From assembly GCA_964371615.1 (NCBI GenBank), contig CAYJMS010000001.1:688436-752435 (forward strand): 64,000 nt of DNA, written 5' to 3'. The position numbers were made by a program, and so were the translations under genes. The notes under the pieces are model-generated. The model saw only the letters and a program-made list of their open reading frames with translations, was not told where the DNA came from and made no database searches. The stretch is from an uncultured Chitinophagaceae bacterium. GTDB taxonomy: Bacteria; Bacteroidota; Ignavibacteria; UBA10030; UBA8401. Positions 206 to 33,467 of the stretch are shown one piece after another. Every line of letters starts with the position of its first letter. Positions within the stretch are counted from its first letter, which is position 1.

Positions 206-2941
206 ATGAGTGAAACCAAAGTAGCCACGCCCAACACCGTTGTCCGGGAGCACACCGGAAAGAGCGGTCTTGTCTTCAAACGATATTTCACACGAGAAGG
301 TGTGCATCCCTTCGATGATATCGAATGGGAATTACGCACCGCAGTGATCAGCAATGAAAAAGGGGAGAAAATATTCGAACAAAAGGACGTGGAAATTCCG
401 AAATCGTGGTCTATGACGGCAACGAATGTGGTGGTGTCGAAATATTTCCACGGTCAGCTCGGCACACCGGAGCGCGAACAGAGCGTCCGGCAGATTGTCG
501 ATCGGGTGGCAAAATCGACGGTGAACTGGGGACGTGCAATGAAATATTTTGCCTCCGAACAGGATGCAGAAACCTTCTATAATGAATTGTGTTACATTCT
601 GGTCAATCAATACATGGCGTTCAACAGCCCGGTGTGGTTCAACGTCGGTGTTGAGGAGAAACCGCAATGTTCGGCTTGCTTCATCAATTCCGTCCAGGAT
701 TCGATGGAATCGATTTTAGGACTTGCACGCACCGAAGGTATGCTCTTTAAATGGGGATCCGGTACAGGCTCCAATCTCTCCACGCTTCGTTCCTCCAAAG
801 AGGCGCTCGCCGGAGGAGGCACGGCATCCGGACCGGTCTCGTTCATGAAGGGATACGATGCGTTTGCCGGCGTGATCAAATCGGGAGGCAAAACCCGACG
901 CGCCGCCAAGATGGTCATTCTGAATACCGATCATCCCGACATCGTAGATTTCATCAACTGTAAAGCGGTGGAAGAGAAGAAGGCGTGGGCATTGATCGAT
1001 GCGGGATATAACGGCGGATTCAACGTTCCCGGCGGAGCGTACGATTCTGTCTCGTATCAGAATGCGAATCATTCCGTTCGTGTGACCGATGATTTCATGA
1101 AAGCGGCGCTTGAAGATAAAGAATGGACGACCAAAGCGGTGAAGAACGGCAAACCGGTCGAGACCTACCGTGCGCGCGATCTGATGCGTCAAATCTCCGA
1201 AGCGGCATGGATCTGCGGAGATCCCGGTATGCAATTCGACACAACCATCAACGCATGGCATACGTCGTCGAACACTGCCCGTATCAATGCATCGAATCCG
1301 TGCAGTGAATATATGTACCTGGATGATTCTGCCTGTAACCTTGCATCGTTGAACGTCATGAAATTCCGTACGGAAGACGGTGAATTCGACGTTGAGGCAT
1401 TTAAGTACGCCGTTGACATTACGATCACTGCACAGGAAATCTTTGTCGACAACGCTAGTTACCCGACACCCGCTATCGAAAAAAACAGCCACGACTACCG
1501 TCCTCTCGGCCTTGGCTACGCGAACCTCGGTGCATTATTGATGGCACGCGGCCTTGCGTATGACAGCGATTCCGGAAGGGAATATGCTGCCGCGGTGACG
1601 TCGTTGATGTGCGGTGAAGCATATGCACAGTCGGCCCGTATTTCGGAGCATACCGGTCCGTTTAAGGGATTTGCAGTGAACCGTGAACCGATGCTGAATG
1701 TGATGAATAAGCACAGCATCCATGCCGACAGAATCAGCAAAGATTATGTCCCGGCGGAATTGTGGGATGCATCCAGCCAATCATGGAAGGAAGCGATCGA
1801 ACTCGGGAAGCAGTACGGTTACCGGAACGGACAGGCGACCGTGTTGGCACCGACCGGCACCATCGGTTTTATGATGGATTGTGATACCACCGGCGTTGAG
1901 CCGGACATTGCATTGGTGAAATATAAAAAATTGGTCGGCGGCGGTTTGATGAAGATCGTGAACAATACTGTTCCCGAAGCGTTGCAGAAATTGGGGTATG
2001 ACAGCGAAGCAATCGAGCATATCGTTTCGTTTATCGACAAGAACGATACGATCGAAGGTGCCCCGTTTTTGAAAGAAGAACACCTCTCCGTGTTCGACTG
2101 CGCGTTCAAACCTGCAAAGGGGAAACGCTCCATTCAATATATGGGTCATATCAAAATGATGGGTGCCACGCAGCCGTTCCTGTCCGGCGCCATCTCTAAA
2201 ACAGTGAACATGCCGAACGAGGTATCGCCGGACGACATCATGCAGGCGTACATCGAATCGTGGAAACTCGGTCTGAAAGCCGTTGCCGTGTATCGTGACG
2301 GATGCAAACGCACACAGCCATTATCCACCTCTATGGATAGCGGTAAAAAGGATGAGAAAAAGACGGAATCCCGTCCCGCACGACGCCGCTTACCGGCGGA
2401 GCGCGCTGCCTACACGCACAAGTTCAGCATTGCCGGCCATGAAGGCTATATCACTGCCGGTATGTATGAGGACGGTATGCCGGGAGAGGTATTCATTACG
2501 ATGTCGAAGGAAGGGTCCACGCTCAGCGGTATGATGGATGCGTTTGCGACATCAATCTCCATTGCATTGCAGTACGGCGTTCCGCTGAAAGTGCTGGTCG
2601 ATAAATTCAGTCACATGCGGTTCGAACCCTCCGGCTTTACGCAGAATCCCGAGATTCCGATTGCAAAATCGATCTGCGATTACATCTTCCGCTGGCTCAG
2701 TATCAAGTTTTTGGACAAAGCCGAACAGCCGGTCAGCGTCGTCTCTGAAACGCCGGCGCTCGAATCGGTGAAGGATGAAGCACGCACGGCGGAAACATTT
2801 GCAGCAGCAGAGCGGGGCGAGAAATATGTTTTCCAGACGCAGGCCGACGCACCTCCGTGTCATGAGTGCGGCAGTTTGATGATTCGTTCCGGTGCATGCT
2901 ACAAATGCACGCAATGCGGAAGTACTTCGGGTTGTTCTTGA
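206..2941 (+). CDS. nrdJ: Class II (adenosylcobalamin-dependent) ribonucleotide reductase, monomeric NrdJ type with C-terminal Cys-rich zinc-ribbon tail
   Basis: 911 aa ORF. RNR barrel motifs (NPCSEYM, active-site region) are present. C-terminal tail CHECG...CYKCTQCG is typical of NrdJ. RBS-like AGGAGAG lies upstream. Confidence 0.93.
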   Translation: MSETKVATPNTVVREHTGKSGLVFKRYFTREGVHPFDDIEWELRTAVISNEKGEKIFEQKDVEIPKSWSMTATNVVVSKYFHGQLGTPEREQSVRQIVDRVAKSTVNWGRAMKYFASEQDAETFYNELCYILVNQYMAFNSPVWFNVGVEEKPQCSACFINSVQDSMESILGLARTEGMLFKWGSGTGSNLSTLRSSKEALAGGGTASGPVSFMKGYDAFAGVIKSGGKTRRAAKMVILNTDHPDIVDFINCKAVEEKKAWALIDAGYNGGFNVPGGAYDSVSYQNANHSVRVTDDFMKAALEDKEWTTKAVKNGKPVETYRARDLMRQISEAAWICGDPGMQFDTTINAWHTSSNTARINASNPCSEYMYLDDSACNLASLNVMKFRTEDGEFDVEAFKYAVDITITAQEIFVDNASYPTPAIEKNSHDYRPLGLGYANLGALLMARGLAYDSDSGREYAAAVTSLMCGEAYAQSARISEHTGPFKGFAVNREPMLNVMNKHSIHADRISKDYVPAELWDASSQSWKEAIELGKQYGYRNGQATVLAPTGTIGFMMDCDTTGVEPDIALVKYKKLVGGGLMKIVNNTVPEALQKLGYDSEAIEHIVSFIDKNDTIEGAPFLKEEHLSVFDCAFKPAKGKRSIQYMGHIKMMGATQPFLSGAISKTVNMPNEVSPDDIMQAYIESWKLGLKAVAVYRDGCKRTQPLSTSMDSGKKDEKKTESRPARRRLPAERAAYTHKFSIAGHEGYITAGMYEDGMPGEVFITMSKEGSTLSGMMDAFATSISIALQYGVPLKVLVDKFSHMRFEPSGFTQNPEIPIAKSICDYIFRWLSIKFLDKAEQPVSVVSETPALESVKDEARTAETFAAAERGEKYVFQTQADAPPCHECGSLMIRSGACYKCTQCGSTSGCS

Positions 2942-3044
2942 TACGCTGACATCCCGCTTATTATTTTGGCAGGGCGGATCTACGAGTGAATGTCACTGAT
3001 ATCTGCGCCTTCGCCGAAACGAAATCACATACAAAGCATCATAA

Positions 3045-3104
3045 AAACGCCGAGACAGACCTGACGATGCGGTTGGGGATTGTTCTCGGCGTTTTCAGTT
3101 TTTA
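3045..3104 (+). terminator. Rho-independent terminator after nrdJ (long-loop hairpin AACGCCGAGA...TCTCGGCGTT followed by TTTCAGTTTTT)
   Basis: Inverted repeat plus T-run read directly; sits about 100 nt after the nrdJ stop. Confidence 0.5.
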
Positions 3105-3164
3105 GATCTCTCTTGTTCTCTCTTAGAAAAAGCTTATATTTGCATAAACGTAAAGGAGACAAAA

Positions 3165-4190
3165 ATGTCTTTTATTGAAGTTACTTCTCCCCAGTTCGAA
3201 GTGGTGAAAAGCATGGAATCTTTTGTGGCGCAAAATCTTTCCACGCTGTTAAAATCGGTAGATGAGAACTGGCAGCCGACTGATCTTTTACCGGATATGA
3301 CCGCCGATGATTGGCGGGAACAGATCACGGAATTCCGGCGACGGGCAAAATCGTTGGCCGATGAAGTACTGGTGGTGCTTGTGGGGGATATGGTGACGGA
3401 AGAAGCGCTTCCAAGCTATCAGACTTGGTTGAACCGGTTCGGCGGAATCAACGATCCGACAGGAGACAGCGACGGCGCATGGGCGCGGTGGAGCAGAGGG
3501 TGGACATCAGAAGAGAATCGCCACGGCGATCTACTCAATAAATACCTCTATCTTACCGGAAGAGTAGACATGCGCTCAGTGGAAACAACGGTGCAGCATC
3601 TCATCAACAGCGGATTTAATACAAATTCCGGAAATGACCCGTATCTCGGATTCATTTACACATCATTTCAGGAACGGGCAACAAAGATCTCTCACCGAAA
3701 CGTGGGAATACTGGCAAAAAAATGCGGCGACGAACATCTTCACAAAATTTGCGGATTGATCGCCGGCGATGAAGCGCGTCACGAAAAAGCCTACAAATTG
3801 TTCATGTCGAAGGTGTTCGAGATCGATCCGAAAAACGCCGTTACGGCCTTTGCACAGATGATGAAGAACAAGGTTACGATGCCCGCAAGCCTCATGACGG
3901 ACGGCAAGGATGTCAACCTATTTTCAAAATTCTCCAATGTGGCGCAACGGATCGGTGTGTATACCGCAAATGATTATGCGTCCATCATCGCTGCTTTGGT
4001 TGATGAATGGAAAGTGGAATCATTAACCGGACTTTCCGATGCTTCCCAAAAAGCCCAGGATTATTTATGCACTTTGGCGGTCAGATACGAACGACTCGCA
4101 GACAGGTTGAAAATTACCGGAAATGCGAGATTCAGCTGGATTTTTGACCGGGAAATCGTACTGGATACTCCAAAAATATCAATGGTGTAA
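3165..4190 (+). CDS. Soluble acyl-ACP desaturase (stearoyl-ACP delta-9 desaturase family, di-iron)
   Basis: 341 aa. Two di-iron carboxylate motifs EENRHG and DEARHE are present. Overall similarity to plant and mycobacterial DesA-type acyl-ACP desaturases, from memory. Confidence 0.88.
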   Translation: MSFIEVTSPQFEVVKSMESFVAQNLSTLLKSVDENWQPTDLLPDMTADDWREQITEFRRRAKSLADEVLVVLVGDMVTEEALPSYQTWLNRFGGINDPTGDSDGAWARWSRGWTSEENRHGDLLNKYLYLTGRVDMRSVETTVQHLINSGFNTNSGNDPYLGFIYTSFQERATKISHRNVGILAKKCGDEHLHKICGLIAGDEARHEKAYKLFMSKVFEIDPKNAVTAFAQMMKNKVTMPASLMTDGKDVNLFSKFSNVAQRIGVYTANDYASIIAALVDEWKVESLTGLSDASQKAQDYLCTLAVRYERLADRLKITGNARFSWIFDREIVLDTPKISMV

Positions 4191-4475
4191 TTGTTTACTC
4201 TACCAACGACCGTTGACGATATACCCTCGACGGTCATCGACATCGTTCGGGGCGACATCACGAAGATCGACGTAGATGCTGTTGTGAATGCCGCCAATAC
4301 CACATTGCTCGGCGGTGTGTACGGATATCCGCTTGCCGATGCGGCAGGTATCGCCGTCCGAACGGTAAAGGAATTTCTGCTTCAAAAAACGTCGGTCCGC
4401 ACAATCCATTTTGTCTGTTTCGATGACGATGCCGAAGACGCCTACCGGACAGCCTTCCGGTTATTCGGTGTGTAA
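4191..4475 (+). pseudogene. Macro-domain (Appr-1''-p / YmdB-like) gene remnant with an in-frame internal deletion of the catalytic core
   Basis: 94 aa ORF starting at TTG directly after the desaturase stop. N-terminal GDITKIDVDAVVNAANTTLLGG joins directly to VYGYPLADAAGIAVRTVKEF...HFVCFDDD. In E. coli YmdB about 80 residues (GGGVDGAIH...STG) separate these two blocks. Confidence 0.6.
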
Positions 4476-4561
4476 TGAGATTTTATCTGCTACTATTGAA
4501 TGAGTGATACCTTCTCCGGAAATTACAATTCATATACTATTCATACGAAAGCGAACGGACA

Positions 4562-5098
4562 ATGAAGAATCGGAAAGTACTTCTGTATATCGCCATGAGC
4601 CTCGACGGATATATCGCCCGGCCGGACGGCGATATCGATTGGCTTTCATCGGTGCAGCGTGAAGGAGAAGATTACGGATACGGTGATTTCATTAACACCG
4701 TTGATACGGTTATCATCGGCAGAAAAACATACGACAAAGTGCTGTCGTTCGGTGTTCCGTTCCCGCATTCCGATAAAGAATGTTATATTATTACCAGAAG
4801 CGAGCGGCCGCCGATCGGGAAAATAATATTTTACACAAATAATCTTAAAGATCTCGTTGCCTCTCTCAAAGGCAAACAGGGAGGGAATATATTTGTGGAC
4901 GGTGGAGCGGAAATCGTCAACACAATGATGAAGCACGGGCTTTTTGACGAATATATTATTTCCATCATCCCCGTATTTCTTGGAAACGGAATACGCTTGT
5001 TTAACGATGCCCGGCCGGAGGAGTCTGTCACTCTTGTGTCTGCCGTGAGTTTCGATTCAGGATTAGTCCAACTCCATTATAGAAAGAACAATGAATAA
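4562..5098 (+). CDS. RibD C-terminal domain / dihydrofolate reductase-like family protein
   Basis: 178 aa with LYIAMSLDGYIARPDGDIDWL and VDGGAEIVNTMMKHGLFDE motifs of the RibD_C/DHFR-like family. Confidence 0.7.
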   Translation: MKNRKVLLYIAMSLDGYIARPDGDIDWLSSVQREGEDYGYGDFINTVDTVIIGRKTYDKVLSFGVPFPHSDKECYIITRSERPPIGKIIFYTNNLKDLVASLKGKQGGNIFVDGGAEIVNTMMKHGLFDEYIISIIPVFLGNGIRLFNDARPEESVTLVSAVSFDSGLVQLHYRKNNE

Positions 5099-5486
5099 GA
5101 AACCGACCGTTGAACAATTTCTCAGCAAGCATCCGCCGGAGATCCGCGTTATTGCTGAAAAACTCCGTACGCTGATATGTGCAACGATTCCGGTACATAT
5201 CGAAGCGGTGTATCCGGGGTGGGGACTAATCGGGTATCGTGTGATCAACGACCGGAAGAGCAAATATTTTGCGTTTATCGCCCCGGGTGCCGAGGGTGTT
5301 AAACTGGGATTTGAGTTCGGCATATTGCTGCCCGATCCGAGCAAAATATTGAAGGGGAACGGAAAACAGGTGAGATATATATTCATCTCCAGACAGAGCG
5401 AAATTAAAAAAAGGATCATTGGGCCGTTGATCTGGGAAGCAGCAATGGTTGCAGTTCATCATACTCACAAGAAGGTGAAAAAATGA
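5091..5486 (+). CDS. DUF1801 (YdhG-like) domain protein
   Basis: 131 aa. Overlaps its neighbours by 8 and 4 nt, so it is translationally coupled within the same operon as tag. Confidence 0.55.
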   Translation: MNKKPTVEQFLSKHPPEIRVIAEKLRTLICATIPVHIEAVYPGWGLIGYRVINDRKSKYFAFIAPGAEGVKLGFEFGILLPDPSKILKGNGKQVRYIFISRQSEIKKRIIGPLIWEAAMVAVHHTHKKVKK

Positions 5487-6070
5487 AATACCGCTGTGCC
5501 TGGTGCGGATCCGACCCGCTCTATACACTGTATCATGACACTGAATGGGGCGTGCCGCTCCATGATGACAGGAAATTGTTCGAAATGCTCATCCTTGAAG
5601 GAGCGCAGGCAGGATTGAGTTGGATCACCATTCTACGGAAGCGGGACGAATACCGAAGGGCTTTCGACCGTTTCGATCCGAAAAAGATCATTCGCTTTGA
5701 TAAGAAAAAAGTAAATGCACTGATGAGAAATCCGGGAATTGTCCGGAACCGGTTGAAAATTGAGTCTGTTAAAAAAAATGCCGCCGCGTTCTTGACGGTA
5801 CAGAAGGAGTTCGGCAGTTTTGATGCGTATATCTGGCAATTTGTGAATGGAAATCCCATTGTCAACTCACGTCGGTCGCTCAAGGATATTCCGTCCGCTA
5901 CCCCGGAATCGGATGCCATGAGCAAGGATATGAAAAAGCGGGGATTTACCTTCGCTGGATCGACGATCTGTTATGCCTTTATGCAGGCATGCGGCATGGT
6001 CAACGATCACGAGACACGTTGTTTCCGTTATCGTTCCGTGAATCGAAAAAAGAGATCCGGTCTATTGTGA
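5483..6070 (+). CDS. tag: DNA-3-methyladenine glycosylase I
   Basis: 195 aa. CAWCGSDPLYTLYHDTEWGVP and FAGSTICYAFMQACGMVNDH are near-identical to E. coli Tag motifs. Confidence 0.9.
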   Translation: MKYRCAWCGSDPLYTLYHDTEWGVPLHDDRKLFEMLILEGAQAGLSWITILRKRDEYRRAFDRFDPKKIIRFDKKKVNALMRNPGIVRNRLKIESVKKNAAAFLTVQKEFGSFDAYIWQFVNGNPIVNSRRSLKDIPSATPESDAMSKDMKKRGFTFAGSTICYAFMQACGMVNDHETRCFRYRSVNRKKRSGLL

Positions 6071-6110: not shown

Positions 6111-6139
6111 TTGACATGACTTGTAAATATTGTTACTAT
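6111..6139 (+). promoter_or_regulatory. Sigma70-type promoter: TTGACA, 17 bp spacer, TACTAT, driving the stand-alone receiver gene
   Basis: TTGACA at 6111-6116 and TACTAT at 6134-6139. RBS AAGGAAA at 6143-6149 and ATG at 6160. Confidence 0.5.
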
Positions 6140-6159
6140 TTACAAGGAAACCTCTCACT

Positions 6160-6537
6160 ATGGATGACATAAAAACAGTTCTTATTGTTGACGATTCTGA
6201 AACGAATCGGTTGCTTCTCGGAGCAATCTTGTCCAAGTACAGTCTTCGGATTCTTTATGCCGAAGACGGTGATGAGGCAGTACAAAAATTTTACGAAAGC
6301 CAGCCCGCCATTGTTTTTATCGACCACATCATGCCGAAGCAAAACGGTGCCGATGCTTTATTCGAGATGAAACACAGTAATCCGAATTTCATCGGCGTGT
6401 TGATCTCTGCACTCGCCACACCGGATGACATTAAAAGGATCTTCGATCTTTCCGGAGCAGAGGAGTTTATTCAACGCCCGTTTCAGTCCATAGTAATCAC
6501 CGAAATTCTGAAAAAATATCACATTATCGAAGGATGA
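6160..6537 (+). CDS. Stand-alone CheY-like receiver domain protein (atypical: Arg in place of the conserved Lys109-equivalent)
   Basis: MDDIKTVLIVDDSE..FIDHIMP..LISA..IQRPF. The DD, D and S positions are conserved. The usual K-P motif reads R-P. Confidence 0.75.
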   Translation: MDDIKTVLIVDDSETNRLLLGAILSKYSLRILYAEDGDEAVQKFYESQPAIVFIDHIMPKQNGADALFEMKHSNPNFIGVLISALATPDDIKRIFDLSGAEEFIQRPFQSIVITEILKKYHIIEG

Positions 6538-6554: not shown

Positions 6555-6590
6555 AATAAAAAAGGACGCCATGGGCGTCCTTTTTTTGTT
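6555..6590. terminator. Bidirectional rho-independent terminator (GGACGCC-ATG-GGCGTCC flanked by an A-run and a T-run) between convergent genes
   Basis: Perfect 7-bp stem, 3-nt loop, AAAAAA upstream and TTTTTTT downstream. Confidence 0.7.
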
Positions 6591-6609: not shown

Positions 6610-8304
6610 TCAACCCAGGACCCGAAGATATTCATCCAGCGAAATCACTCCCGCCATCAATTTTTTCGCCGCATCCATCCGGATCGATTCGAATCCTTTT
6701 CGATTCGCTGCTTCGCGCAGACGCACCGGGGACGCTTGATTATAGATCAGGTCTTTTATCTCTTCATCGATCGGCAGCACTTCATGAATCGCGATCCGTC
6801 CCAGATGCCCGTCTCCGCCGCAGTTTTCGCATCCCTTTCCCTTAAACAACGTAATGGCCTCACCCAACTGGCTTAATCCGGCATCGTGCAGATCATGCTC
6901 GGTCGGTTTGTACTGAACTTTGCAATATTTGCATATCCGTCGGGCAAGTTGCTGGTAAATGACTCCGTTTAAAATCGGTGCGAGCCATGATGGGGGGATG
7001 TCGAAGTTGACCAGACGGGGAATGACAGACAGAGCATCGCTGGCCAGTACAGTGCTCAGTACCATATTTCCGGTCAATGCCGCTTCCGCTGCGGCGCGTC
7101 CGGCGGCAGGTTCGTGGATGCTGCCGAGAAAGACCACATCGGGATGCTGACGCAGCACCGCTCTCATCGATGTTGCATAATCCATTTTCTGATCAGGATC
7201 GATTTCCACCTGACTGGCAAAATTCAACCTGAATTCGACCGGATTTTCGATTGTCATGATGCTCTTTTGATCCTCGCGAAGACTGTCCAGGCATGCATAC
7301 GCTGTGGTGCTGACACCGGAACCGGACGGACCGGCGATCATTAAGAGTCCGCGGGGCCGGGTCAACAAATGGCGGACATGATTGAGATTCTCGCCGGAAA
7401 ACCCGATCTCCTTCAGATCGCGAATTCCCTGTCCCTTTCGAATGATGCGAATAGCATATCGTTCTCCCTCCATGGTCGGCAGTGTATTCACGCGGAAGTC
7501 GAAAAGAAAATTTCCGTATTGCGACGAGTACCGGCCGTCCTGGGCTTTCTTTTTGTCAAACAGTTTCAAACTGCCGCGTGTGCGGAGAACGTTACAGACG
7601 GTCTCCGTCATTTCTTTTGGAAGCGACAAATAGTGGTTCAATACGCCGTCGATATTGAGTCGCACCCTCAATTCGGTCTCCATCGGTTCCAAGTAGATGT
7701 CCGTCGCACCGAGCTTGATAGCCCGCATGACCAGTTCATCAACGATGAGATCGACATTCGGCAGTTTCCCGGAATTAAATATCTCATACACTTTTTCCTT
7801 CGGCCGGGATTTCAGGTCGATCGTCTCCAGGGGGAATTTTGACTGCAGAATTTGGTATTCATTTAGTTTTTTATCGACGCCCAGATTCAATACGGACAGT
7901 AAGGCCGATCGTTTTGCTGTTACCGGTACGATGAACGCCTTTGTTTCGTTCCGCATCGCTTCAACGATTTCTTTATACGGAGGCGACGTGAAGACAACGG
8001 TCAATTCAATACCGCTGCGGATGATCGGAAGAGCATTAAATTTTTTCAGGAACGAATCTTTGATCTGTTTGTCGGTCAATGATACCATCGATTCGGTCAG
8101 ATTCAGGAAGGGGATGTTGAAATCTTCCGAAATCGCTTCCGCCACAAGATCCTCACTCACGCCAAGCGAATCGATCAGCACGTCGGCAGTGAATTTATGT
8201 TCCGCACCTCCCATCATACGTTGGAATTTTTCGATACGTACTTTGTCAAGGTGTCCTTTCGCCATCAGGTGCCGAACAAGACGGATATCTTCTTCTTTAA
8301 TCAT
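6610..8304 (-). CDS. GspE/PilB-family secretion ATPase homolog with degenerate catalytic motifs (predicted pseudo-ATPase); N-terminal T2SSE_N-like domain, C-terminal tetracysteine zinc motif retained
   Basis: 564 aa. Walker A reads GPSGSGVST (Lys to Val, checked against the DNA). The Asp box reads TIENPVEF (Asp to Asn). Walker B reads DVVFLGSIHE instead of DVVMVGEIRD, so the catalytic Glu is Ser. The His box reads ALTGNMVLSTVLAS, so both His are lost. The CKYC...CENCGG zinc motif is intact. Confidence 0.85.
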   Translation of the reverse strand: MIKEEDIRLVRHLMAKGHLDKVRIEKFQRMMGGAEHKFTADVLIDSLGVSEDLVAEAISEDFNIPFLNLTESMVSLTDKQIKDSFLKKFNALPIIRSGIELTVVFTSPPYKEIVEAMRNETKAFIVPVTAKRSALLSVLNLGVDKKLNEYQILQSKFPLETIDLKSRPKEKVYEIFNSGKLPNVDLIVDELVMRAIKLGATDIYLEPMETELRVRLNIDGVLNHYLSLPKEMTETVCNVLRTRGSLKLFDKKKAQDGRYSSQYGNFLFDFRVNTLPTMEGERYAIRIIRKGQGIRDLKEIGFSGENLNHVRHLLTRPRGLLMIAGPSGSGVSTTAYACLDSLREDQKSIMTIENPVEFRLNFASQVEIDPDQKMDYATSMRAVLRQHPDVVFLGSIHEPAAGRAAAEAALTGNMVLSTVLASDALSVIPRLVNFDIPPSWLAPILNGVIYQQLARRICKYCKVQYKPTEHDLHDAGLSQLGEAITLFKGKGCENCGGDGHLGRIAIHEVLPIDEEIKDLIYNQASPVRLREAANRKGFESIRMDAAKKLMAGVISLDEYLRVLG

Positions 8305-8309
8305 AGGGA

Positions 8310-8546
8310 TTACCCGAACAGTTTATCGATGTCGCTCTGGCTGACAGTAGTATTTTTTTCGTCGCCGGAGACCGCTTTGCGGTTAATCTCCAACAGCAAT
8401 TTCAGTTCCTGATCGGAAAAGATGCCTGCGGGAGTGAAGTGCGCAGAAGGATTGTGAACATCCGTTTGATGAGAAATGAGGCCGCCGCAGTTGCTGCAAT
8501 ATGCTCCGGAGGGGATAATGTCGGATTTACAATGGGGACAGATCAT
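8310..8546 (-). CDS. Small zinc-ribbon protein (C-x2-C-x11-C-x2-C) of unknown function, coupled between the receiver and the GspE-like gene
   Basis: 78 aa, MICPHCKSDIIPSGAYCSNCGG. Overlaps the upstream receiver gene by 4 nt and ends 5 nt before the GspE-like start. Confidence 0.5.
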   Translation of the reverse strand: MICPHCKSDIIPSGAYCSNCGGLISHQTDVHNPSAHFTPAGIFSDQELKLLLEINRKAVSGDEKNTTVSQSDIDKLFG

Positions 8547-8932
8547 GACTGGAGGCCCTCCACTTGCAGCAATTGCCGAATTAAATCGATGACTTTGGCA
8601 GTTGAATACGGCTTTACTAAATAGTAACTGGCGCCAAGTTGTTTGGCTTCTTGCACTACTTCTATACTAGACACGGCAGAGATCATGACCACAATTGCAT
8701 CAGGTTTTACGGCTCGAATTTTTTTCAACGCGTCCATGCCGGAGAGTTTCGGCATCATATTGTCCATAAATACTATAGAGGGATTGATTTTGCCGAACAA
8801 TTCTACACCTTCTTCTCCGTTTGCGGCAAAATGGATGTGTTGTATACCCGATTTTTTTAACGACATCGCAAATAGTGCCCGAATATGTTCCGAGTCGTCC
8901 ACGACCAATACGGAAATTTCTTCTTTTGTCAT
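8543..8932 (-). CDS. Stand-alone CheY-like response regulator receiver domain
   Basis: 129 aa with canonical VDD, FMDNMMP, ISAV and VKPY receiver residues. First gene of a 3-gene minus-strand operon. Confidence 0.8.
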   Translation of the reverse strand: MTKEEISVLVVDDSEHIRALFAMSLKKSGIQHIHFAANGEEGVELFGKINPSIVFMDNMMPKLSGMDALKKIRAVKPDAIVVMISAVSSIEVVQEAKQLGASYYLVKPYSTAKVIDLIRQLLQVEGLQS

Positions 8933-9264: not shown

Positions 9265-9849
9265 ATGCGCAAAGCTACGATAAAAAGAATTACTAAAGAG
9301 ACTAAAATCTCTGCAACCGTTGACCTGAATGGAGCGGGAAAATCCGCCGTCTCGACGGGCATCGGTTTTCTCGATCACATGCTCGATCTCTTTGCCAAAC
9401 ATGGCTTGTTCGATATCTCCGTACAATGCAAAGGCGATCTTTATGTAGACGATCATCATACGACGGAGGATGTTGGAATTGCATTGGCAAAAGCTTTTGC
9501 AGCAGCGCTGGGGGAAAAGAAAGGTGTGACGCGATATGGTATCGCCTATGTGCCGATGGACGAATCGCTTGCACGGTGTGTTATCGATCTTAGCGGACGA
9601 TCTGCTCTTGTTTTTAGGGCGGAATTCAACCGGAAGAAAGTCGGCGATCTTTCTACGGAAATGATCGAACATTTTTTCCAATCCTTTGCCGATAACTGTA
9701 AAGCGAACATCCACCTCGAAATTTTGTACGGGAAAAATACACACCATAAAATCGAAGCATTGTTTAAAGCATTTGCCCGTGCAATGCGGCAGGCATGCGA
9801 GCAAGATCCGCGTGTCAAGGGTGTGCTCTCCACCAAAGGAAAATTGTAA
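9265..9849 (+). CDS. hisB: Imidazoleglycerol-phosphate dehydratase
   Basis: 194 aa with IGFLDHMLDLFAKHG and DDHHTTED motifs. Confidence 0.93.
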   Translation: MRKATIKRITKETKISATVDLNGAGKSAVSTGIGFLDHMLDLFAKHGLFDISVQCKGDLYVDDHHTTEDVGIALAKAFAAALGEKKGVTRYGIAYVPMDESLARCVIDLSGRSALVFRAEFNRKKVGDLSTEMIEHFFQSFADNCKANIHLEILYGKNTHHKIEALFKAFARAMRQACEQDPRVKGVLSTKGKL

Positions 9850-9920
9850 CAACAACAGATGAGAGATTTGAAGAGCAACTCTCCGGGCGTCAACACTGCG
9901 ACTTTCGTGCATTCATAATT

Positions 9921-10517
9921 ATGATCGGTATTATCGATTATCATTTAAATAATCTTCGGTCCGTACAGAAAGCGTTTGAAAAGGCCGGTGTTCGGTCCTT
10001 CATTTCTGACAAAGGACACGAATTACGCACGGCGGAGAAGATCGTTCTGCCGGGAGTCGGTGCATTCGGTACGGCGATGGAAAATTTGAAGAAACTCGGA
10101 CTGATCGAGATTCTCAACGACCACGTTTCTTCACGTCAACCGATGTTGGGAATTTGTCTTGGCATGCAGTTATTGTTCACCACAAGTCATGAATTGGGTG
10201 ACCATGGGGGATTGGGATATCTTCGTGGCGAGGTGCGGCAATTCTCTCCATCGGTTAAGGTGCCACACATGGGTTGGAATCAGATCGAAATAGTGAAAAA
10301 ATCCCCGGTGGTGAAAAACGTTGTCGAAAACAGTTTCGCATATTTTGTCCACTCCTATTACGTTGTACCGCTCGATGATGTGACTGTTGCAGAGACCGAG
10401 TACGGACATCGGTTTGCATCAATTGTACAGAAAGAGAATATATTTGGTATTCAGTTCCATCCCGAAAAAAGTCAGGAAACAGGACTGCAACTGTTGAAAA
10501 ATTTTGCGTCATTGTAA
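9921..10517 (+). CDS. hisH: Imidazole glycerol phosphate synthase, glutamine amidotransferase subunit
   Basis: MIGIIDYHLNNLRSV..LPGVGAFG..GICLGMQLL..FHPE class I GATase triad motifs. The ORF-track start at 9795 is an upstream in-frame extension; the ATG at 9921 fits HisH N-termini. Confidence 0.9.
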   Translation: MIGIIDYHLNNLRSVQKAFEKAGVRSFISDKGHELRTAEKIVLPGVGAFGTAMENLKKLGLIEILNDHVSSRQPMLGICLGMQLLFTTSHELGDHGGLGYLRGEVRQFSPSVKVPHMGWNQIEIVKKSPVVKNVVENSFAYFVHSYYVVPLDDVTVAETEYGHRFASIVQKENIFGIQFHPEKSQETGLQLLKNFASL

Positions 10518-10529
10518 AAGATTAAAACC

Positions 10530-11294
10530 ATGATACTGATTTTACCGGCGATCGACATAAAGAATGGCCGCTGTGTTCGGCTGGTCCAGGGTGCGCCCGG
10601 AACGGAAAAGATCTATTCCGATGATCCCGTGCAAATGGCAGTGCTGTGGCGCGGTGAAAATGCAAAAACACTCCATGTAGTCGACCTGGACGGTGCATTC
10701 GGCGGAACGATGCAAAATCTTGAAGTACTTCGCCGGATGATCGCGGCAGTCGATATTCCTATCCAGGTTGGGGGCGGCATACGCACCTACGACCAGGTAC
10801 AACAATTACTGGAATGCGGAATTTATCGCATCGTCATCGGCACGTCGGCTATCGACGATCCTGATCTTGTGGCGCGCTGCGTCACCGACTTTGGCGCACG
10901 GAAGATCGTCGTTGGCATCGATGCAAAGAACGGCGTCGTTATGACAAAAGGATGGCAGGAAAACACCGGTATCGAAGCAGTTTCGCTGGCATTGAATATG
11001 AAAGCGCTCGGCGTTTGTCGTATCGTCTACACGGATATCTCTCGTGACGGCATGCTGACGGGACCGAATTTTTCAGCTATTCAAGAAATGGCGCAAAAGA
11101 CTGGATTGCGCGTCACCGCATCGGGAGGCGTGTCGGGATACCAGGATCTGATCGGTTTGCAAGAACTTGAAAAATTCGGAGTCGATTCCGTTATTATCGG
11201 CAAGGCGCTGTATGAAAATAAATTTTCGTGTCAGGCTTTGTGGAGAGCCAACGAGAGGGAATTGGACGATCTCGGTCCTACACGGAGAATTTAA
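10530..11294 (+). CDS. hisA: ProFAR isomerase (1-(5-phosphoribosyl)-5-[(5-phosphoribosylamino)methylideneamino]imidazole-4-carboxamide isomerase)
   Basis: [18 protein letters not shown]...VGGGIR..SGGV motifs. Confidence 0.9.
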
Positions 11295-11328
11295 CTGCAA
11301 TGGGGAAGACGTTTTTGAAGGAAGTCGA

Positions 11329-12087
11329 GTGTTAGCAAAGAGAATTATACCGTGTCTTGATGTCGATAACGGACGGGTTGTTAAAGGGATCAATTTTGTC
11401 GAATTGGTGGATGCCGGCGATCCGGTGGAACAGGCAAAGTTCTACAATGCGGAAGGGGCGGATGAATTGATCTTTCTCGACATTACGGCATCGTCAGAAG
11501 ACCGTGCGACAGTCATCGATATGGTGCGCAGAACTGCGGAGGAAGTGACAATTCCGTTCACCATCGGCGGCGGAATTCGCACGGCGGCTGATATGCGCGT
11601 GATGCTGCGGAACGGTGCGGATAAAGTCTGCGTCAATACTGCCGCGGTTAAGAATCCCGAATTGCTGAAAGAAGGAGCGTCCGTCTTCGGCGTACAGTGC
11701 ATTGTTGTCGCCATCGATGCAAAAAAAACCGCGGAGAAGAAATGGAAAGTGTTCATCCACGGCGGCAGGACCGAGACGGTATTGGATGCGGTTGAATGGG
11801 CGCAGCAGGCAGAAGAATCCGGTGCCGGAGAAATTATGCTCACCAGCATGGATCGGGACGGAACGAAGGATGGATACGATCTCGATTTGTTGAAAGCTGT
11901 CTGTTCTGCCGTCAGGATACCGGTCATTGCCAGCGGCGGAGCGGGAAATTTGGAGCATCTCTACGAAGCGTTCAGTGTTGCCGACGCTGATGCGGTCCTC
12001 GCCGCATCCATTTTCCACTTCCGTCAGTATACGATCGGCCAGGCAAAAGAATATTTAAAGAATAAAAATATCCACGTACGAATATAA
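11329..12087 (+). CDS. hisF: Imidazole glycerol phosphate synthase cyclase subunit
   Basis: GTG start gives [20 protein letters not shown], the typical HisF N-terminus. IGGGIR and ASGGAG motifs are present. Confidence 0.9.
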
Positions 12088-31799: not shown

Positions 31800-33467
31800 T
31801 CATTCGACAGCTGCGGGGAACATCATTCTGATCGTTGTCCCTTTGCCGAGTTCGCTGTCGATCTCGATTTTCCCTTTGTGATCGTCAATCACTTTTTTAA
31901 CAATGGACATGCCGAGACCGGTTCCGTGTTTCTTTCCATAGGTCACAAACGGCTCAAAGATTCTCCGTTTTACCTCTTCCGGCATACCGGTGCCGGTATC
32001 GGTAAATTCGATCTTCACCATTCCGCCGATATCCTCGGTTGAGACGGAGAGCGATCCGCCGTTCGGCATGGCATCGCGTGCGTTGCTGGCGATATTATAG
32101 AATACCCGGACCATTTTATCCTGGTCGAGTTTTACTGTTCCCTTGAAATTAAGGTGCTTTTCTAATTTGACGTTGTTCTTGGTGAGGTCTTTTTCGATGA
32201 ACATCAGAACTCCCTCCATAACATCCTCGAACACCACATTTTCCATGTTCGTTGCGCTCACACCCCGGCTGAAGTCGAGAATTTCCTGCGCCATATTGAC
32301 AAATCGGTCGACCTGATGGATCATCTCGTCCGCCATTTTTGCCGCCTCTTCGTTCCCCGATTTCTTCTTCATTACCTGAGCATACACCCGCAGCGTTCCC
32401 ATCGGATTCTTGATGTCATGGATGATTGTGCTGGCCATGCGTCCGACGGCGGATAGTCGTTCGTTGTTCACCATCTCTTGGGCCATCCGGGCATTTTCGA
32501 TGGCAATGGAAGCGTGAATGGAAAGGGCGTTCAGGAACTCCTCGTCCTGCGGAGTAAACGGTCCCCCTTTTTTGTTTAACATTTGAAAGACGCCGATAAT
32601 CTTGCCGTCGCGATTGCGCATCGGCATGGTGAGCATATTATTCGTGCGGTAACCGGTCTTTTTGTCCACTTCGGGATTAAAGCGGGGATCGTTGTAAGCA
32701 TCGGGTATGTTCACGATCTCGCCCGTCTTTGCCACATAGCCGGCTAGTCCTTTGCCGAGCGGCAGCCGTATCTCAATCACTTCTGTGCCGCGTAGGGCTT
32801 TCGACCAGATCTCACCTTTTAATTCATCAACCAGATATAATGTACCGCGATCCGAGGCGATTGATTTAATCGCCGTTTCTAGAATTACATCGAGCAATTT
32901 ATCGAGATCGAGTGTCGAATTGACAGTCTTTGCAGCATCGATCAGGGTGTTTAACTTATTTATGTGCTGCTTCGATATCTCCACCGTCCGGTCCAGCTCC
33001 TGTACGATCGTCTGATCGGCAGCGCGTAACCGCTTCGTAACATTCCGCAATATGTTCAATTGGATGATGTTGTTCGATTTCAAGAGATTATCAAAATCCT
33101 GTTTGCTGATGCTGGCGCACACCGTGTTCTCCACGGCCATCGTCCGAGCAGACCGCACCTGATCGTCCAACAGCTCCATCTCTCCGAAAAAATCTCCCTT
33201 GGTAAGATGGGCAAGAACTGTTTCCGCTCCATACTTTGTCACTTTAGAGATCTTGATCTTGCCATCGAGGATAAGATACAATCGCTCTCCGCGGGTATTT
33301 TCCTGGAAAACGACGGTATTGGCGGCAAATCTCTCTTCTCGACACATCTTGAGAATTGCGTTCAAATTCACATCGGCCACATATTTAAACGCCGACGCGG
33401 ATTTGAGATTTTCGAGAGTGAGGAGTGATTGTTCCATTGGCTCTTTTCGAGTTGTGATTGGTTTCAA
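31800..33467 (-). CDS. Soluble sensor histidine kinase: cNMP-binding (CAP-type) domain, GAF domain, HisKA and HATPase_c
   Basis: FGEMELL...RSARTMAVE cNMP-binding signature. GAF region. H-box HDIKNP. G1/G2 boxes DTGTGM and GTGLGM. No TM segments. Confidence 0.85.
   Translation of the reverse strand: MKPITTRKEPMEQSLLTLENLKSASAFKYVADVNLNAILKMCREERFAANTVVFQENTRGERLYLILDGKIKISKVTKYGAETVLAHLTKGDFFGEMELLDDQVRSARTMAVENTVCASISKQDFDNLLKSNNIIQLNILRNVTKRLRAADQTIVQELDRTVEISKQHINKLNTLIDAAKTVNSTLDLDKLLDVILETAIKSIASDRGTLYLVDELKGEIWSKALRGTEVIEIRLPLGKGLAGYVAKTGEIVNIPDAYNDPRFNPEVDKKTGYRTNNMLTMPMRNRDGKIIGVFQMLNKKGGPFTPQDEEFLNALSIHASIAIENARMAQEMVNNERLSAVGRMASTIIHDIKNPMGTLRVYAQVMKKKSGNEEAAKMADEMIHQVDRFVNMAQEILDFSRGVSATNMENVVFEDVMEGVLMFIEKDLTKNNVKLEKHLNFKGTVKLDQDKMVRVFYNIASNARDAMPNGGSLSVSTEDIGGMVKIEFTDTGTGMPEEVKRRIFEPFVTYGKKHGTGLGMSIVKKVIDDHKGKIEIDSELGKGTTIRMMFPAAVE

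What the first reader, a model, noticed from the sequence alone, without database searches (positions are those of the whole stretch)
6610..8932. Operon of a CheY-like receiver, a zinc-ribbon protein and a GspE/PilB-family ATPase with every catalytic motif substituted
Three tightly coupled minus-strand genes: a receiver (8932-8543), a small zinc-ribbon protein (8546-8310) and a GspE-like protein (8304-6610); the gaps are a 4-nt overlap and 5 nt.

The large protein keeps the T2SSE_N-type N-terminal domain, the overall AAA+/secretion-ATPase fold and the C-terminal tetracysteine zinc motif. All four catalytic signatures are altered:
- Walker A reads GPSGSGVST instead of GPTGSGKST. I confirmed the Lys-to-Val change by reverse-complementing 7295-7340.
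- The Asp box reads IENPVE instead of VEDPVE.
- Walker B reads DVVFLGSIHE instead of DVVMVGEIRD, so the catalytic Glu and the Arg are lost.
- The His box reads TGNMVLSTVLAS instead of TGHLVLSTLHTN.

This cannot be one frameshift or a sequencing error, because the ORF is intact over 564 codons. It looks like an evolved, non-hydrolysing secretion-ATPase paralog. Pairing with a phospho-receiver suggests a signalling or scaffolding role, perhaps regulating the pilin-like system at 54.8-57.2 kb or a machine elsewhere in the genome.

The first 30 residues (RLVRHLMAKGHLDKVRIEKFQ) loosely fit the MshEN c-di-GMP-binding motif RLGxxLxxxGxLxxxxLxxxLxxQ. I am not aware of a described family of catalytically dead GspE/PilB proteins coupled to CheY-like receivers.
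Basis: partly seen in the sequence, partly recalled or inferred. Interest (0 to 1): 0.85.

Follow-up and report, generated by a model that had tools for sequence, protein, structure and literature searches.

The report
Receiver-coupled dead PilB-like ATPase operon
A conserved three-gene operon in an uncultured Ignavibacteria-type bacterium encodes a CheY-like phospho-receiver, a small zinc-ribbon adaptor and a pilus-motor-like ATPase that has lost its catalytic residues yet is under strong selection, so a former motor protein seems to have become a signalling part.

Summary
Genes, junctions and all four motif substitutions are as described (Walker A K→V, codon GTC; Asp box D→N; Walker B E→S and R→H; both His-box His lost).

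It is not a pseudogene. Seven relatives (79–94% identical) share the K→V/E→S state and form a clade with 100% bootstrap. dN/dS is 0.03–0.07, lower than for neighbouring housekeeping genes.

The degeneration has two layers. An Ignavibacteriota/Bacteroidota-restricted paralog group lost the His box throughout but mostly keeps Lys and Glu. Only the window's subclade, plus one independent short form, lost the Lys. The Asp-box change is not diagnostic.

The conserved unit is a triad of receiver, Zn-ribbon protein and PilB-like ATPase, repeated 1–3 times per locus. No PilC, pilin or secretin gene lies nearby.

The Zn-ribbon proteins end in an invariant SQxDIDKLF helix that matches the CheY~P-docking peptides of FliM and CheZ. 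They occur only with ATPases that keep the N-terminal domain.

Most likely mechanism: receiver~P binds the adaptor, which acts on a pseudo-ATPase scaffold. The output is unknown.

The c-di-GMP (MshEN) idea fails a formal motif test. The link to the "pilin-like" genes at 54.8 kb has no support.

Novelty: a new variant of a known kind.

The parts
8543..8932 (-). RR1: single-domain CheY-like receiver, first gene of the operon
   Evidence: Pfam Response_reg 1.3e-25. CheY positions D12, D13, D57, T87(S), A88, Y106, K109 and P110 are all kept, and kept across 23 orthologs. dN/dS 0.046 vs L001.
8310..8546 (-). ZnR: 78-aa zinc-ribbon adaptor (CxxC...CxxC), overlapping RR1 by ATGA
   Evidence: Cysteines C3, C6, C17 and C20. 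Weak Pfam DZR hit, 19.1 bits, below cut-off. The family has 36 clusters, all annotated 'hypothetical'. AF2 model: zinc knuckles 1-23, disordered linker, helices 45-60 and 70-77.
8316..8342 (-). ZnR C-terminal motif SQSDIDKLF (residues 69-77): putative CheY~P-docking helix
   Evidence: Q70, D74 and F77 are invariant in ZnR_A, ZnR_B and ZnR_C. The same pattern matches E. coli FliM N-terminus LSQAEIDALL and CheZ C-terminus ASQDQVDDLL, both verified from NC_000913.3. In 551,850 background ORF residues, 48 of 49 pattern matches lie at extreme C-termini, where the aligned ZnR proteins carry the motif.
6610..8304 (-). PilB/GspE-family pseudo-ATPase (paralog group B), 564 aa
   Evidence: Pfam T2SSE 2.6e-82. 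Below the PilB and GspE equivalog cut-offs. dN/dS 0.033-0.067. K->V clade 100% bootstrap.
7885..8304 (-). N-terminal GSPII/MshEN-fold domain (residues 1-140) with degenerate c-di-GMP half-sites at residues 8 and 37
   Evidence: Pfam MshEN 27.2 bits. Aligns to the PilF GSPII-B c-di-GMP domain 8pfa, E=0.002. Relaxed motif test fails, 7/11 and 8/11 positions. AF2 pLDDT 80-92.
7303..7332 (-). Degenerate Walker A GPSGSGVSTT (Lys->Val, codon GTC)
7231..7254 (-). Asp box TIENPVEF (D->N; not diagnostic, shared with canonical paralog A)
7111..7140 (-). Degenerate Walker B DVVFLGSIHE (catalytic Glu->Ser, Arg->His)
7039..7074 (-). Degenerate His box TGNMVLSTVLAS (both His lost; a family-wide trait of the B, C and short paralogs)
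6820..6933 (-). Tetracysteine zinc motif (C458, C461, C492, C495), intact
   Evidence: Invariant columns in A1; motif table.
6558..6586 (.). Bidirectional intrinsic-terminator-like hairpin (13-bp stem flanked by A and T runs) between the convergent ATPase and RR2 genes
6160..6537 (+). RR2: second single-domain receiver, always linked to the cluster although its position and orientation vary. The ORF can start at TTG 6130, but relatives are called at 123-125 aa, i.e. ATG 6160.
   Evidence: Pfam Response_reg 8e-17. Orthologs lie downstream, upstream or convergent to the triads. CheY-position signature DDD-S-A-I-A-F-Q-R-P, i.e. Y106F and K109R. dN/dS 0.077.

Best explanation
The locus is a phosphorylation-controlled signalling module built around a PilB/GspE-family protein that no longer works as a motor.

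Shown:
- A three-gene operon (CheY-like receiver RR1, Zn-ribbon protein ZnR, PilB-like protein) plus a linked second receiver RR2 is conserved in a lineage of uncultured Ignavibacteriota/Bacteroidota.
- The large protein belongs to a lineage-specific paralog group that lost both His-box histidines. In the window's subclade it also lost the Walker A Lys and the Walker B Glu and Arg.
- It remains under strong purifying selection and keeps its N-terminal domain, N2 domain and zinc motif.

Inferred:
- It cannot hydrolyse ATP, and probably binds it poorly.
- It therefore acts through protein-protein contacts, as a fixed 'apo-like' conformer.

Proposed signal path (inferred):
1. An unlinked histidine kinase phosphorylates RR1.
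2. RR1~P binds the C-terminal SQxDIDKLF helix of ZnR through its alpha4-beta5-alpha5 face, as CheY~P binds FliM_N or CheZ_C.
3. ZnR is anchored on the ATPase's N-terminal GSPII-like domain.
4. The complex changes the oligomeric state, localisation or partner binding of the pseudo-ATPase.
5. RR2 (Y106F, K109R here) acts as a competing phosphate sink or antagonist.

The output is either a type IV filament or secretion machine encoded elsewhere (occupying, blocking or recruiting at the PilC/PilM platform) or another downstream pathway. Which one is unknown.
For: Motif loss is verified against PilF and read from the DNA.

The dead state is conserved. P0001-P0008, L001 and L003 all carry GPSG[SA]GVSTT + GSI[HN]E and form a clade with 100/100 bootstrap, nested in paralog B.

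Purifying selection: dN/dS is 0.033 (dS 0.96) and 0.067, against about 0.09 for hisB and the adenine glycosylase next door.

The His-box-less proteins (B + C + short forms) are monophyletic at 100/100. They are sister to a canonical paralog A and evolve about 2x faster (0.60 vs 0.32).

Triad synteny: the receiver-ZnR-ATPase unit is repeated 1-3 times in 68 loci, with RR2 retained despite rearrangements.

The receivers keep all phospho-acceptor residues, and RR1 keeps the CheY switch Tyr106.

ZnR C-terminal motif: it is invariant in ZnR_A, B and C and predicted helical. It fits one pattern with the FliM_N and CheZ_C sequences taken from E. coli K-12. In background sequence, 48 of 49 matches lie at extreme C-termini, where the aligned ZnR proteins carry it. 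FliM's EIDAL helix binds CheY~P between alpha4 and alpha5 (PMC6946799, PMC9126983).

ZnR is present at 48/50 full-length ATPases and at 0 genuine short forms, which lack the N-domain.

At least 12 representative PilB-type proteins carry fused receiver domains.

Precedents:
- M. xanthus PilB K327A is a dominant, apo-like signalling form acting independently of pilus assembly (PMC5544727).
- Phospho-PixG binds PilB1 and PixH antagonises it (PMC11181946).
- Archaeal CheY~P acts on the archaellum via the adaptor CheF (PMC9126983).

A second, independent K->V substitution occurs in a receiver-coupled short form, P0059.
Against: No biochemical data exist. Loss of ATP binding and hydrolysis is inferred from motifs only, and the intact glycine P-loop (GPSGSG-ST) could still hold a phosphate or nucleotide.

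The RR1-ZnR and ZnR-N-domain contacts are inferred from a short motif and from co-occurrence. Because the short forms are monophyletic, that co-occurrence reflects roughly one evolutionary event.

RR1 does not keep CheY K119 and K122, which contact FliM_N in E. coli.

No kinase, platform protein, pilin or secretin is linked in any locus, so neither input nor output is identified.

Most family members keep the Lys and Glu and may be slow ATPases, so the family's general mechanism may still need nucleotide.

The AF2 model of the ATPase core is low-confidence.
Confidence: 0.6

Rival explanations
1. The module has nothing to do with a pilus or secretion machine. The hexameric PilB-like shell has been co-opted as a stand-alone signalling hub, for example controlling polysaccharide production or a switch between motile and attached states, as apo-PilB does for EPS in Myxococcus.
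For: No PilC/GspF, pilin, PilM-Q or secretin gene lies within +/-10 kb in any of the loci inspected. The cluster sits at a housekeeping syntenic site: desaturase ... adenine glycosylase ... his operon. Short forms lack the N-terminal domain that in GspE/PilB contacts the machine. A PilB Walker A mutant signals EPS independently of T4P assembly (PMC5544727).
Against: Extension ATPases are often encoded apart from their machines. Ignavibacteria do carry pilB/pilC/pilT/pilQ (Melioribacter, PMC3534657). In most genomes the sister paralog A, in the same cluster, looks like a competent motor.
Confidence: 0.3
2. The protein is still an ATPase that uses non-canonical residues, or it is activated in trans by a partner that supplies the missing Lys/Glu/His. 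For example, it could work in a mixed hexamer with a canonical PilB encoded elsewhere.
For: The glycine scaffold of the P-loop, the Ser/Thr after the Val, the Asp-box Glu and the N2-domain 'QDGR' arginine are conserved. In most relatives a canonical paralog A sits next to B, which is compatible with mixed assemblies.
Against: Lys, Glu and both His are lost together. In PilB, K327A strongly reduces ATP binding and E391A abolishes hydrolysis (PMC5544727). Paralog A is absent from the locus in the window, L001-L005 and anywhere else in the 64-kb window. No compensating Lys/Glu shows up in the alignments.
Confidence: 0.07
3. It is a c-di-GMP receptor of the MshE/PilF type, with the N-terminal MshEN domain as the signal input.
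For: Pfam MshEN hit above cut-off. Weak alignment to the c-di-GMP-binding GSPII-B domain of PilF. The two best partial motif matches lie at residues 8 and 37, the correct tandem register with a 5-residue spacer.
Against: 0 of 56 full-length A/B/C paralogs match the authors' relaxed motif, while the PilF control does. The conserved Gly3 and Gln24 are missing in both half-sites (V/M and T/E). PMC5013675 describes these as highly conserved ligand-contacting residues and reports that mutating the conserved motif residues markedly reduces binding. There is no c-di-GMP riboswitch or any other Rfam element in the window.
Confidence: 0.06
4. It is a recent pseudogene or decaying relic of a PilB duplicate, or an assembly or sequencing artefact.
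For: All catalytic motifs are hit, and the sister paralog A has been lost from the locus.
Against: The 564-codon ORF is intact. The identical sequence occurs on many independent contigs. Eight 79-100% relatives share the state. dN/dS of 0.03-0.07 is lower than for the housekeeping neighbours. The Val codon needs 3 nucleotide changes.
Confidence: 0.02
5. It specifically regulates the three 'pilin-like' ORFs at 54.8-57.2 kb of the same window.
For: Those ORFs have N-terminal hydrophobic segments.
Against: They have no Pfam or NCBIfam match. They lie 46 kb away, and nothing similar lies near the triad in any related locus.
Confidence: 0.05

Closest known systems
PilB / GspE / PilF extension and secretion ATPases (Pfam T2SSE; T. 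thermophilus PilF 6f8l/5oiu, V. cholerae EpsE 1p9r, G. metallireducens PilB 5tsg)
   Same: Full-length collinear homology (31-37% identity): N-terminal GSPII/MshEN-fold domain, N2 domain, RecA-like core and C-terminal tetracysteine zinc motif.
   Different: Walker A Lys, Walker B Glu/Arg and both His-box His are replaced. Scores are far below the PilB and GspE equivalog cut-offs (362 vs 675; 349 vs 630). There are no platform, pilin or secretin neighbours. It forms a separate Ignavibacteriota-specific clade.
Myxococcus xanthus PilB acting as a signalling protein (PMC5544727)
   Same: A PilB-type protein whose nucleotide-free, Walker-A-defective form (K327A) transmits a signal independently of pilus assembly. 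The window protein is a natural Walker-A-Lys-less PilB homolog.
   Different: In Myxococcus one protein is both motor and signaller, and the mutant is engineered. Here a dedicated paralog has fixed the dead state and is wired to receivers through a Zn-ribbon protein.
Cyanobacterial Tax1 system: PixG~P binds PilB1, PixH antagonises it (PMC11181946); more generally PilG/PilH
   Same: Phosphorylated CheY-like receivers act directly on a PilB-type ATPase. A second receiver acts as antagonist or sink, which resembles the RR1/RR2 pair.
   Different: PixG uses a PATAN output domain and targets an active motor. Here the receivers are single-domain, a separate Zn-ribbon adaptor is interposed, the genes form one operon with the ATPase, and the ATPase is catalytically dead.
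CheY~P docking peptides of FliM (N-terminal EIDAL helix) and CheZ (C-terminus); archaeal CheY-CheF-archaellum adaptor logic (PMC6946799, PMC9126983)
   Same: The ZnR C-terminus SQxDIDKLF fits the same pattern as FliM LSQAEIDALL and CheZ ASQDQVDDLL, is terminal and is predicted helical. As with CheF, a small adaptor would connect CheY~P to a type-IV-filament-family ATPase system.
   Different: There is no homology of ZnR to FliM, CheZ or CheF outside the peptide. CheF binds CheY at a different surface. Binding has not been demonstrated here.
PilB cofactors and inhibitors (PilZ/FimX; A. baylyi PilB+TfpB with the inhibitor CpiA) (PMC11656802, PMC8213720)
   Same: Small accessory proteins and second PilB paralogs tune extension-motor activity.
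   Different: Those paralogs are active ATPases, and those cofactors are PilZ, EAL or other folds. None is a Zn-ribbon protein with a CheY-docking-like tail, and none is a receiver-coupled pseudo-ATPase.

Membership tests
T2SSE superfamily (Pfam PF00437, type II/IV secretion system protein) | Domain match above the gathering score | tested here: met
   276.9 bits vs cut-off 24.9, residues 184-561
T2SSE superfamily, as an active ATPase | Walker A GxxxxGK[ST] lysine | tested here: not met
   GPSGSGVSTT; Val codon GTC
T2SSE superfamily, as an active ATPase | Walker B with catalytic Glu (hhhhGEhRD) | tested here: not met
   DVVFLGSIHE
T2SSE superfamily, as an active ATPase | His box with two conserved histidines (TGHxxxSTLHT) | tested here: not met
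   TGNMVLSTVLAS. The loss is shared by all B, C and short paralogs.
T2SSE superfamily, as an active ATPase | Asp box (hEDPhE) | tested here: inconclusive
   IENPVE: the Glu residues are kept and D->N. The same variant occurs in canonical-looking paralog A and in some ordinary PilB/GspE proteins.
GspE/PilB subfamily | C-terminal tetracysteine zinc-binding motif | tested here: met
   C458, C461, C492 and C495 are invariant
Type IV-A pilus assembly ATPase PilB (NCBIfam TIGR02538 equivalog) | Score at or above the curated equivalog cut-off | tested here: not met
   362.1 vs 675.65. Paralogs A, B and C also fail: 544, 404 and 394.
Type II secretion ATPase GspE (NCBIfam TIGR02533 equivalog) | Score at or above the curated equivalog cut-off | tested here: not met
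   349 vs 630.25
PilB/GspE as part of a filament or secretion machine | Genomic linkage with the platform protein (PilC/GspF), pilins or secretin | tested here: not met
   None within +/-10 kb in representative loci of every architecture. No other T2SSE gene in the window. Presence elsewhere in the genome was not testable.
MshEN c-di-GMP receptor domain | Pfam MshEN/GSPII fold match | tested here: met
   27.2 bits vs 23.1; aligns to PilF GSPII-B 8pfa, E=0.002
MshEN c-di-GMP receptor domain | Two tandem 24-residue motifs RLGxx(L/V/I)(L/V/I)xxG(L/V/I)(L/V/I)xxxxLxxxLxxQ, tested in the authors' relaxed form | tested here: not met
   0/56 paralogs match while the PilF control matches. The window scores 7/11 and 8/11, lacking Gly3 and Gln24 in both half-sites (motif from PMC5013675).
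CheY-like phospho-receiver (Pfam Response_reg) | Acidic pocket D12/D13, phospho-acceptor D57, T/S87, K109 | tested here: met
   RR1 signature DDD-S-A-V-A-Y-V-K-P, conserved in orthologs. RR2 keeps DDD and S but has K109R and Y106F.
FliM_N / CheZ_C type CheY~P-docking peptide | Terminal helical peptide fitting [ST]Q..[ILV]D.[LFM][LFY] | tested here: met
   SQSDIDKLF at the ZnR C-terminus. FliM and CheZ from E. coli K-12 fit the same pattern. 48/49 background matches lie at extreme C-termini, where the aligned ZnR proteins carry the motif. Predicted helix 70-77.
FliM_N / CheZ_C type CheY~P-docking peptide | Phosphorylation-dependent binding to the alpha4-beta5-alpha5 face of the receiver | not testable with these tools
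   Needs binding assays or complex modelling. RR1 keeps A103, Y106 and V108 (I95V) but not K119 or K122.
Double zinc ribbon (Pfam DZR PF12773) | Score above gathering; two CxxC...CxxC ribbons | tested here: not met
   19.1 vs 27.3 bits. The window protein has one ribbon after a 26-residue deletion. The 105-110-aa relatives have two, and many carry a precomputed DZR hit.
Anti-phage defence systems (PADLOC) | Any component model match | tested here: not met
   0 hits for all four proteins

The most novel reading that the evidence does not exclude
Ignavibacteriota possess a previously undescribed signalling device. CheY-like receivers dock, via a FliM/CheZ-like terminal helix, onto a dedicated Zn-ribbon adaptor. 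The adaptor controls PilB-derived hexamers that have progressively given up catalysis: His box first, then in some lineages Walker A and B. This would be a bacterial counterpart of the archaeal CheY-CheF-archaellum link and a natural example of a secretion-ATPase pseudoenzyme acting as a phospho-gated switch on, or decoy for, a type IV filament platform.
Probability: 0.3. Interest if true: 0.8.

Novelty: new variant of a known kind. Interest (0 to 1): 0.62.

Why it matters
PilB/GspE/PilT-type ATPases are treated as obligate motors. A paralog that has naturally lost every catalytic residue, yet is conserved under strong selection, shows that the hexameric scaffold itself can have a selectable, non-enzymatic role. 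That idea has so far been suggested only by engineered Walker-A mutants of Myxococcus PilB.

The family also offers a graded natural series in closely related genomes: canonical A, then His-box-less B/C/short forms, then the fully dead subclade, with an independent recurrence of the same K→V change. This is useful material for asking how motor ATPases turn into regulators.

The receiver–Zn-ribbon–ATPase triad, with its FliM-like docking tail, gives a concrete and cheaply testable hypothesis for how two-component or chemotaxis-like signals reach type-IV-filament-family ATPases in the FCB group. Nothing is known about this there.

Limits: every carrier is an uncultured MAG, and the output of the system is unknown.

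Tried and rejected
- **Rfam scan of the whole window:** no hit, so no c-di-GMP riboswitch or other RNA element.
- **PADLOC:** no defence-system match.
- **Pfam and NCBIfam on ORFs 54837-57247:** no hits, so the 'pilin-like' label could not be supported.
- **Kinase next to the receiver–ATPase pairs:** sporadic only. A hybrid PAS kinase at L076 and a Reg_prop kinase at L033; the other neighbours are T9SS-sorted proteins, argininosuccinate lyase and similar.
- **AF2 model of the ATPase (32-sequence alignment):** the core (residues 316-453) has pLDDT <50. I did not interpret it. The Foldseek search only recovered GspE/PilB/PilT at low TM-scores.
- **First ZnR structure job:** Redone with database proteins.
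- **First tree script:** timed out. Redone with numpy distances.
- **The ~1000-aa top hits of the exhaustive search:** they looked like possible active+dead fusions but are tandem canonical double ATPases, unrelated to the His-box-less clade.
- **RR2 K109R tracking the ATPase K→V clade:** it does not. It also occurs in L019 and L029, which keep the Lys.
- **Organism name:** not recoverable; the sources give none.
- **Literature searches** for a described degenerate PilB/GspE family or a receiver–Zn-ribbon–GspE module: nothing found.

Full report
**1. The observation**

All three minus-strand ORFs exist at the stated coordinates.
- The receiver stop overlaps the Zn-ribbon start (ATGA). The Zn-ribbon stop is followed by 5 nt and then the ATG of the large gene.
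- Pfam assigns T2SSE (2.6e-82) and MshEN (27.2 bits, cut-off 23.1) to the 564-aa protein, and Response_reg (1.3e-25) to the 129-aa protein. The 78-aa protein gets only a sub-threshold DZR hit.
- The HMMER alignment to T. thermophilus PilF places each motif unambiguously: GPSGSGVSTT vs GPTGSGKSFT; TIENPVEF vs TIEDPVEY; DVVFLGSIHE vs DIIMVGEIRD; TGNMVLSTVLAS vs TGHLVIATLHTN.
- The Val codon is GTC, three substitutions away from Lys.
It is convergent with the ATPase gene and separated from it by a 13-bp-stem bidirectional terminator-like hairpin at 6558-6586.

**2. It is not a pseudogene, and the loss has two layers**

A database search found 61 close relatives (45-100% identity), followed by a sharp drop to ordinary PilB/GspE at ≤37%. 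The motif table shows:
- The whole group lacks both His-box histidines and mostly has VENPVE.
- P0009-P0058 keep the Walker A Lys and GEIRD.
- Only P0001-P0008 (79-100% identity to the window) have GPSG[SA]GVSTT together with GSI[HN]E.
- One short form, P0059, independently has the same K→V.

In an NJ tree of the ATPase core (100 bootstraps):
- The K→V group is monophyletic (100) and nested in paralog B.
- The His-box-less proteins (B, C and short forms) are monophyletic (100).
- Together with a canonical paralog A (98) they form one lineage-specific clade (100), set apart from ordinary PilB/GspE.
- Path lengths from the common ancestor are 0.32 (A), 0.60 (B), 0.69 (K→V) and 0.54 (short).

dN/dS for the window gene is 0.033 against L001 (dS 0.96) and 0.067 against L003. 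That is lower than for hisB and the adenine glycosylase next door, both about 0.09. The dead state is therefore maintained by selection.

**3. The genomic unit**

A scan of one genome per species returned 68 loci, all from uncultured Ignavibacteriota/Bacteroidota-Chlorobi MAGs.
- Mapping receivers, Zn-ribbon proteins and ATPases onto them, and looking at Pfam-annotated contexts, shows a triad of receiver, Zn-ribbon protein and PilB-like ATPase.
- The triad is repeated in tandem: A+B in most genomes, A+B+C in L023/L024, and B alone in the window, L001-L005.
- RR2 is always adjacent, but it may lie downstream, upstream or convergent.
- The cluster sits at a syntenic housekeeping site: acyl-ACP desaturase ... 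cluster ... adenine glycosylase ... hisBHAF.
- No PilC/GspF, pilin, PilM-Q or secretin gene occurs within ±10 kb in any architecture examined.
- The window holds no second T2SSE gene.
- Paralog A has a canonical Walker A, Walker B and His box but also VENPVE, so the Asp-box change is not evidence of inactivity.
- None of A, B, C or the short forms reaches the PilB or GspE equivalog cut-offs.

**4. The partners**

*Receivers.* RR1 orthologs keep D12, D13, D57, S87, A88, Y106, K109 and P110 in CheY numbering. RR2 keeps the acidic pocket and Ser but has Y106F, and in the window K109R.

*Zn-ribbon proteins.* These are double ribbons of 105-110 aa in most genomes. In the window, L001, L004 and L005 a 26-residue deletion leaves a single ribbon.
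- All three paralog groups (ZnR_A, B and C) end in an invariant [ST]Q-x-[DE]-[ILV]-D-x-[LF]-[FY] motif. Window: SQSDIDKLF. L026 ZnR_A: LSQNEIDLLF.
- I retrieved E. coli K-12 FliM, CheZ and CheY to avoid relying on memory. FliM starts MGDSILSQAEIDALLN and CheZ ends ASQDQVDDLLDSLGF.
- One regular expression covers both of these and the ZnR tails. In 551,850 six-frame ORF residues it matches 49 times, 48 of them at an extreme C-terminus, which is where the aligned ZnR proteins carry the motif.
- FliM's EIDAL helix is the CheY~P docking site, between α4 and α5 (PMC6946799, PMC9126983).
- AF2 models the window ZnR as zinc knuckles (1-23), a disordered linker, a helix at 45-60 and a terminal helix at 70-77 that coincides with the motif (pLDDT 70).
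- ZnR genes precede 48 of 50 full-length ATPase genes. The two exceptions are over-extended ORF calls. ZnR genes precede none of the genuine short forms, which lack the N-terminal domain. This points to the N-terminal GSPII-like domain as the ZnR anchor, but it amounts to about one evolutionary event.
- The ZnR family is tiny (36 clusters, all 'hypothetical') and confined to this lineage.

*Wider support.* In an exhaustive search of 1.84 billion representatives, 143 of the 150 parsed ATPase modules in the 150 best-scoring proteins are fully canonical. Only a handful are His-box-less. At least 12 PilB-type representatives carry fused receiver domains, an independent hint that receivers act directly on this ATPase family.

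**5. The c-di-GMP idea**

- The N-terminal domain does have the GSPII/MshEN fold: a Pfam hit, a weak alignment to PilF GSPII-B (8pfa, E=0.002), and a confident AF2 four-helix + α/β model.
- Its best partial motif matches lie at residues 8 and 37, the correct tandem register.
- However, 0 of 56 full-length paralogs match the relaxed 24-residue pattern published by the discoverers of the motif. A PilF control does match.
- Gly3 and Gln24 are absent from both half-sites. PMC5013675 describes these as highly conserved residues that contact the ligand.
- I treat the domain as a relic of a c-di-GMP site, re-used for protein binding.

**6. Mechanism**

*Shown:* a selected, receiver-linked PilB-family protein without catalytic residues.

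*Inferred:* it is a pseudo-ATPase locked in an apo-like state. RR1~P docks on the ZnR tail, and ZnR sits on the N-terminal domain. The complex changes assembly, location or partner binding of the scaffold. RR2 competes for phosphate.

*Precedents for each step:*
- Myxococcus PilB K327A is a dominant apo-like signalling form (PMC5544727).
- Phospho-PixG binds PilB1 while PixH antagonises it (PMC11181946).
- Archaeal CheY~P reaches the archaellum through the adaptor CheF (PMC9126983).
- Accessory regulators and second extension motors are known for PilB (PMC11656802, PMC8213720).
- Ignavibacteria carry pilB/pilC/pilT/pilQ (PMC3534657), so a filament machine is a plausible target. No linkage shows it, and a machine-independent output remains a serious rival.

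**7. Novelty and score**

Four literature searches found no description of a His-box-less or Walker-A-less PilB/GspE family, nor of a receiver–Zn-ribbon–GspE module.
- The parts are known kinds (T2SSE ATPase, CheY-like receiver, zinc ribbon, EIDAL-like peptide).
- New elements are the combination, the graded natural loss of catalysis and the adaptor. I rate it a new variant of a known kind.
- Interest is moderate to high. It is a clean, testable case of a motor becoming a regulator, with convergent K→V events. It is restricted to uncultured organisms, and neither the input nor the output has been identified.

Noticed in passing
L076:5590-9858 (protein P0059, Logan SRR31558125): A second, independent Walker A Lys->Val change (GPSGSGVSTI) occurs in a 416-aa short-form paralog that keeps SEIRD. 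It is preceded by a receiver and followed by a convergent PAS-HisKA-HATPase-REC hybrid kinase. The same replacement residue has been chosen twice.
   Followed up: partly
L021:3582-5282: The normally canonical paralog A has degenerated independently in this genome (GPPGSGKSST / AEHPVAF / VSEISD / TGTLILGTLNAN) and sits on a long branch.
   Followed up: partly
Representative library hits P0135, P0137, P0139-P0145, P0147-P0149, P0153: About 15 cluster representatives of ~1000 aa are tandem fusions of two complete PilB-like ATPase modules, with canonical motifs in both. P0136 (1047 aa) has a first module with Walker A GPTGSGTTT (K->T). They are unrelated to the window's clade.
   Followed up: partly
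Representative library hits P0159, P0188, P0192, P0206, P0212, P0213, P0222, P0259, P0261 (C-terminal REC); P0215, P0240 (N-terminal REC); P0255 (three REC): These are PilB-type ATPases with canonical motifs and fused receiver domains. I found no description of this architecture in the papers searched.
   Followed up: no
window 54837-57247 (+): Three consecutive ORFs (175, 215 and 401 aa) each have an N-terminal hydrophobic segment and no Pfam or NCBIfam match. They are followed by a 615-aa TPR protein (57332-59179).
   Followed up: partly
window 6130-6537 (+): The RR2 ORF can start at TTG 6130 (135 aa), but orthologs are called at 123-125 aa, which corresponds to ATG 6160. A sigma-70-like promoter match with an extended -10 lies at 6111-6139, which fits the shorter gene.
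   Followed up: partly
window 31800-33467 (-): A sensor histidine kinase with cNMP-binding + GAF + HisKA + HATPase_c domains. It is a candidate, but unlinked, kinase for the orphan receivers.
   Followed up: no
window 62402-64000 (+): A single-domain receiver (144 aa) is followed by a second receiver-containing ORF that runs off the window end. This is another two-component pair in the same window.
   Followed up: no
L009 (CALRIY020000079.1, 'Synechococcus sp. UW140' MAG) and P0029 ('Bacteriovoracaceae bacterium'): The complete A+B triad cluster, 59-61% identical to the window protein, appears on contigs binned as a cyanobacterium and as a Bacteriovoracaceae MAG. These are most likely mis-binned Ignavibacteriota contigs.
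   Followed up: no
window 206-6070 and 9265-12087: The flanks are conserved housekeeping genes: class II ribonucleotide reductase, acyl-ACP desaturase, RibD_C, DUF1801 and adenine glycosylase on one side, and hisB/hisH/hisA/hisF on the other. The triad cluster is inserted at this same site in genomes as distant as 54% identity.
   Followed up: yes
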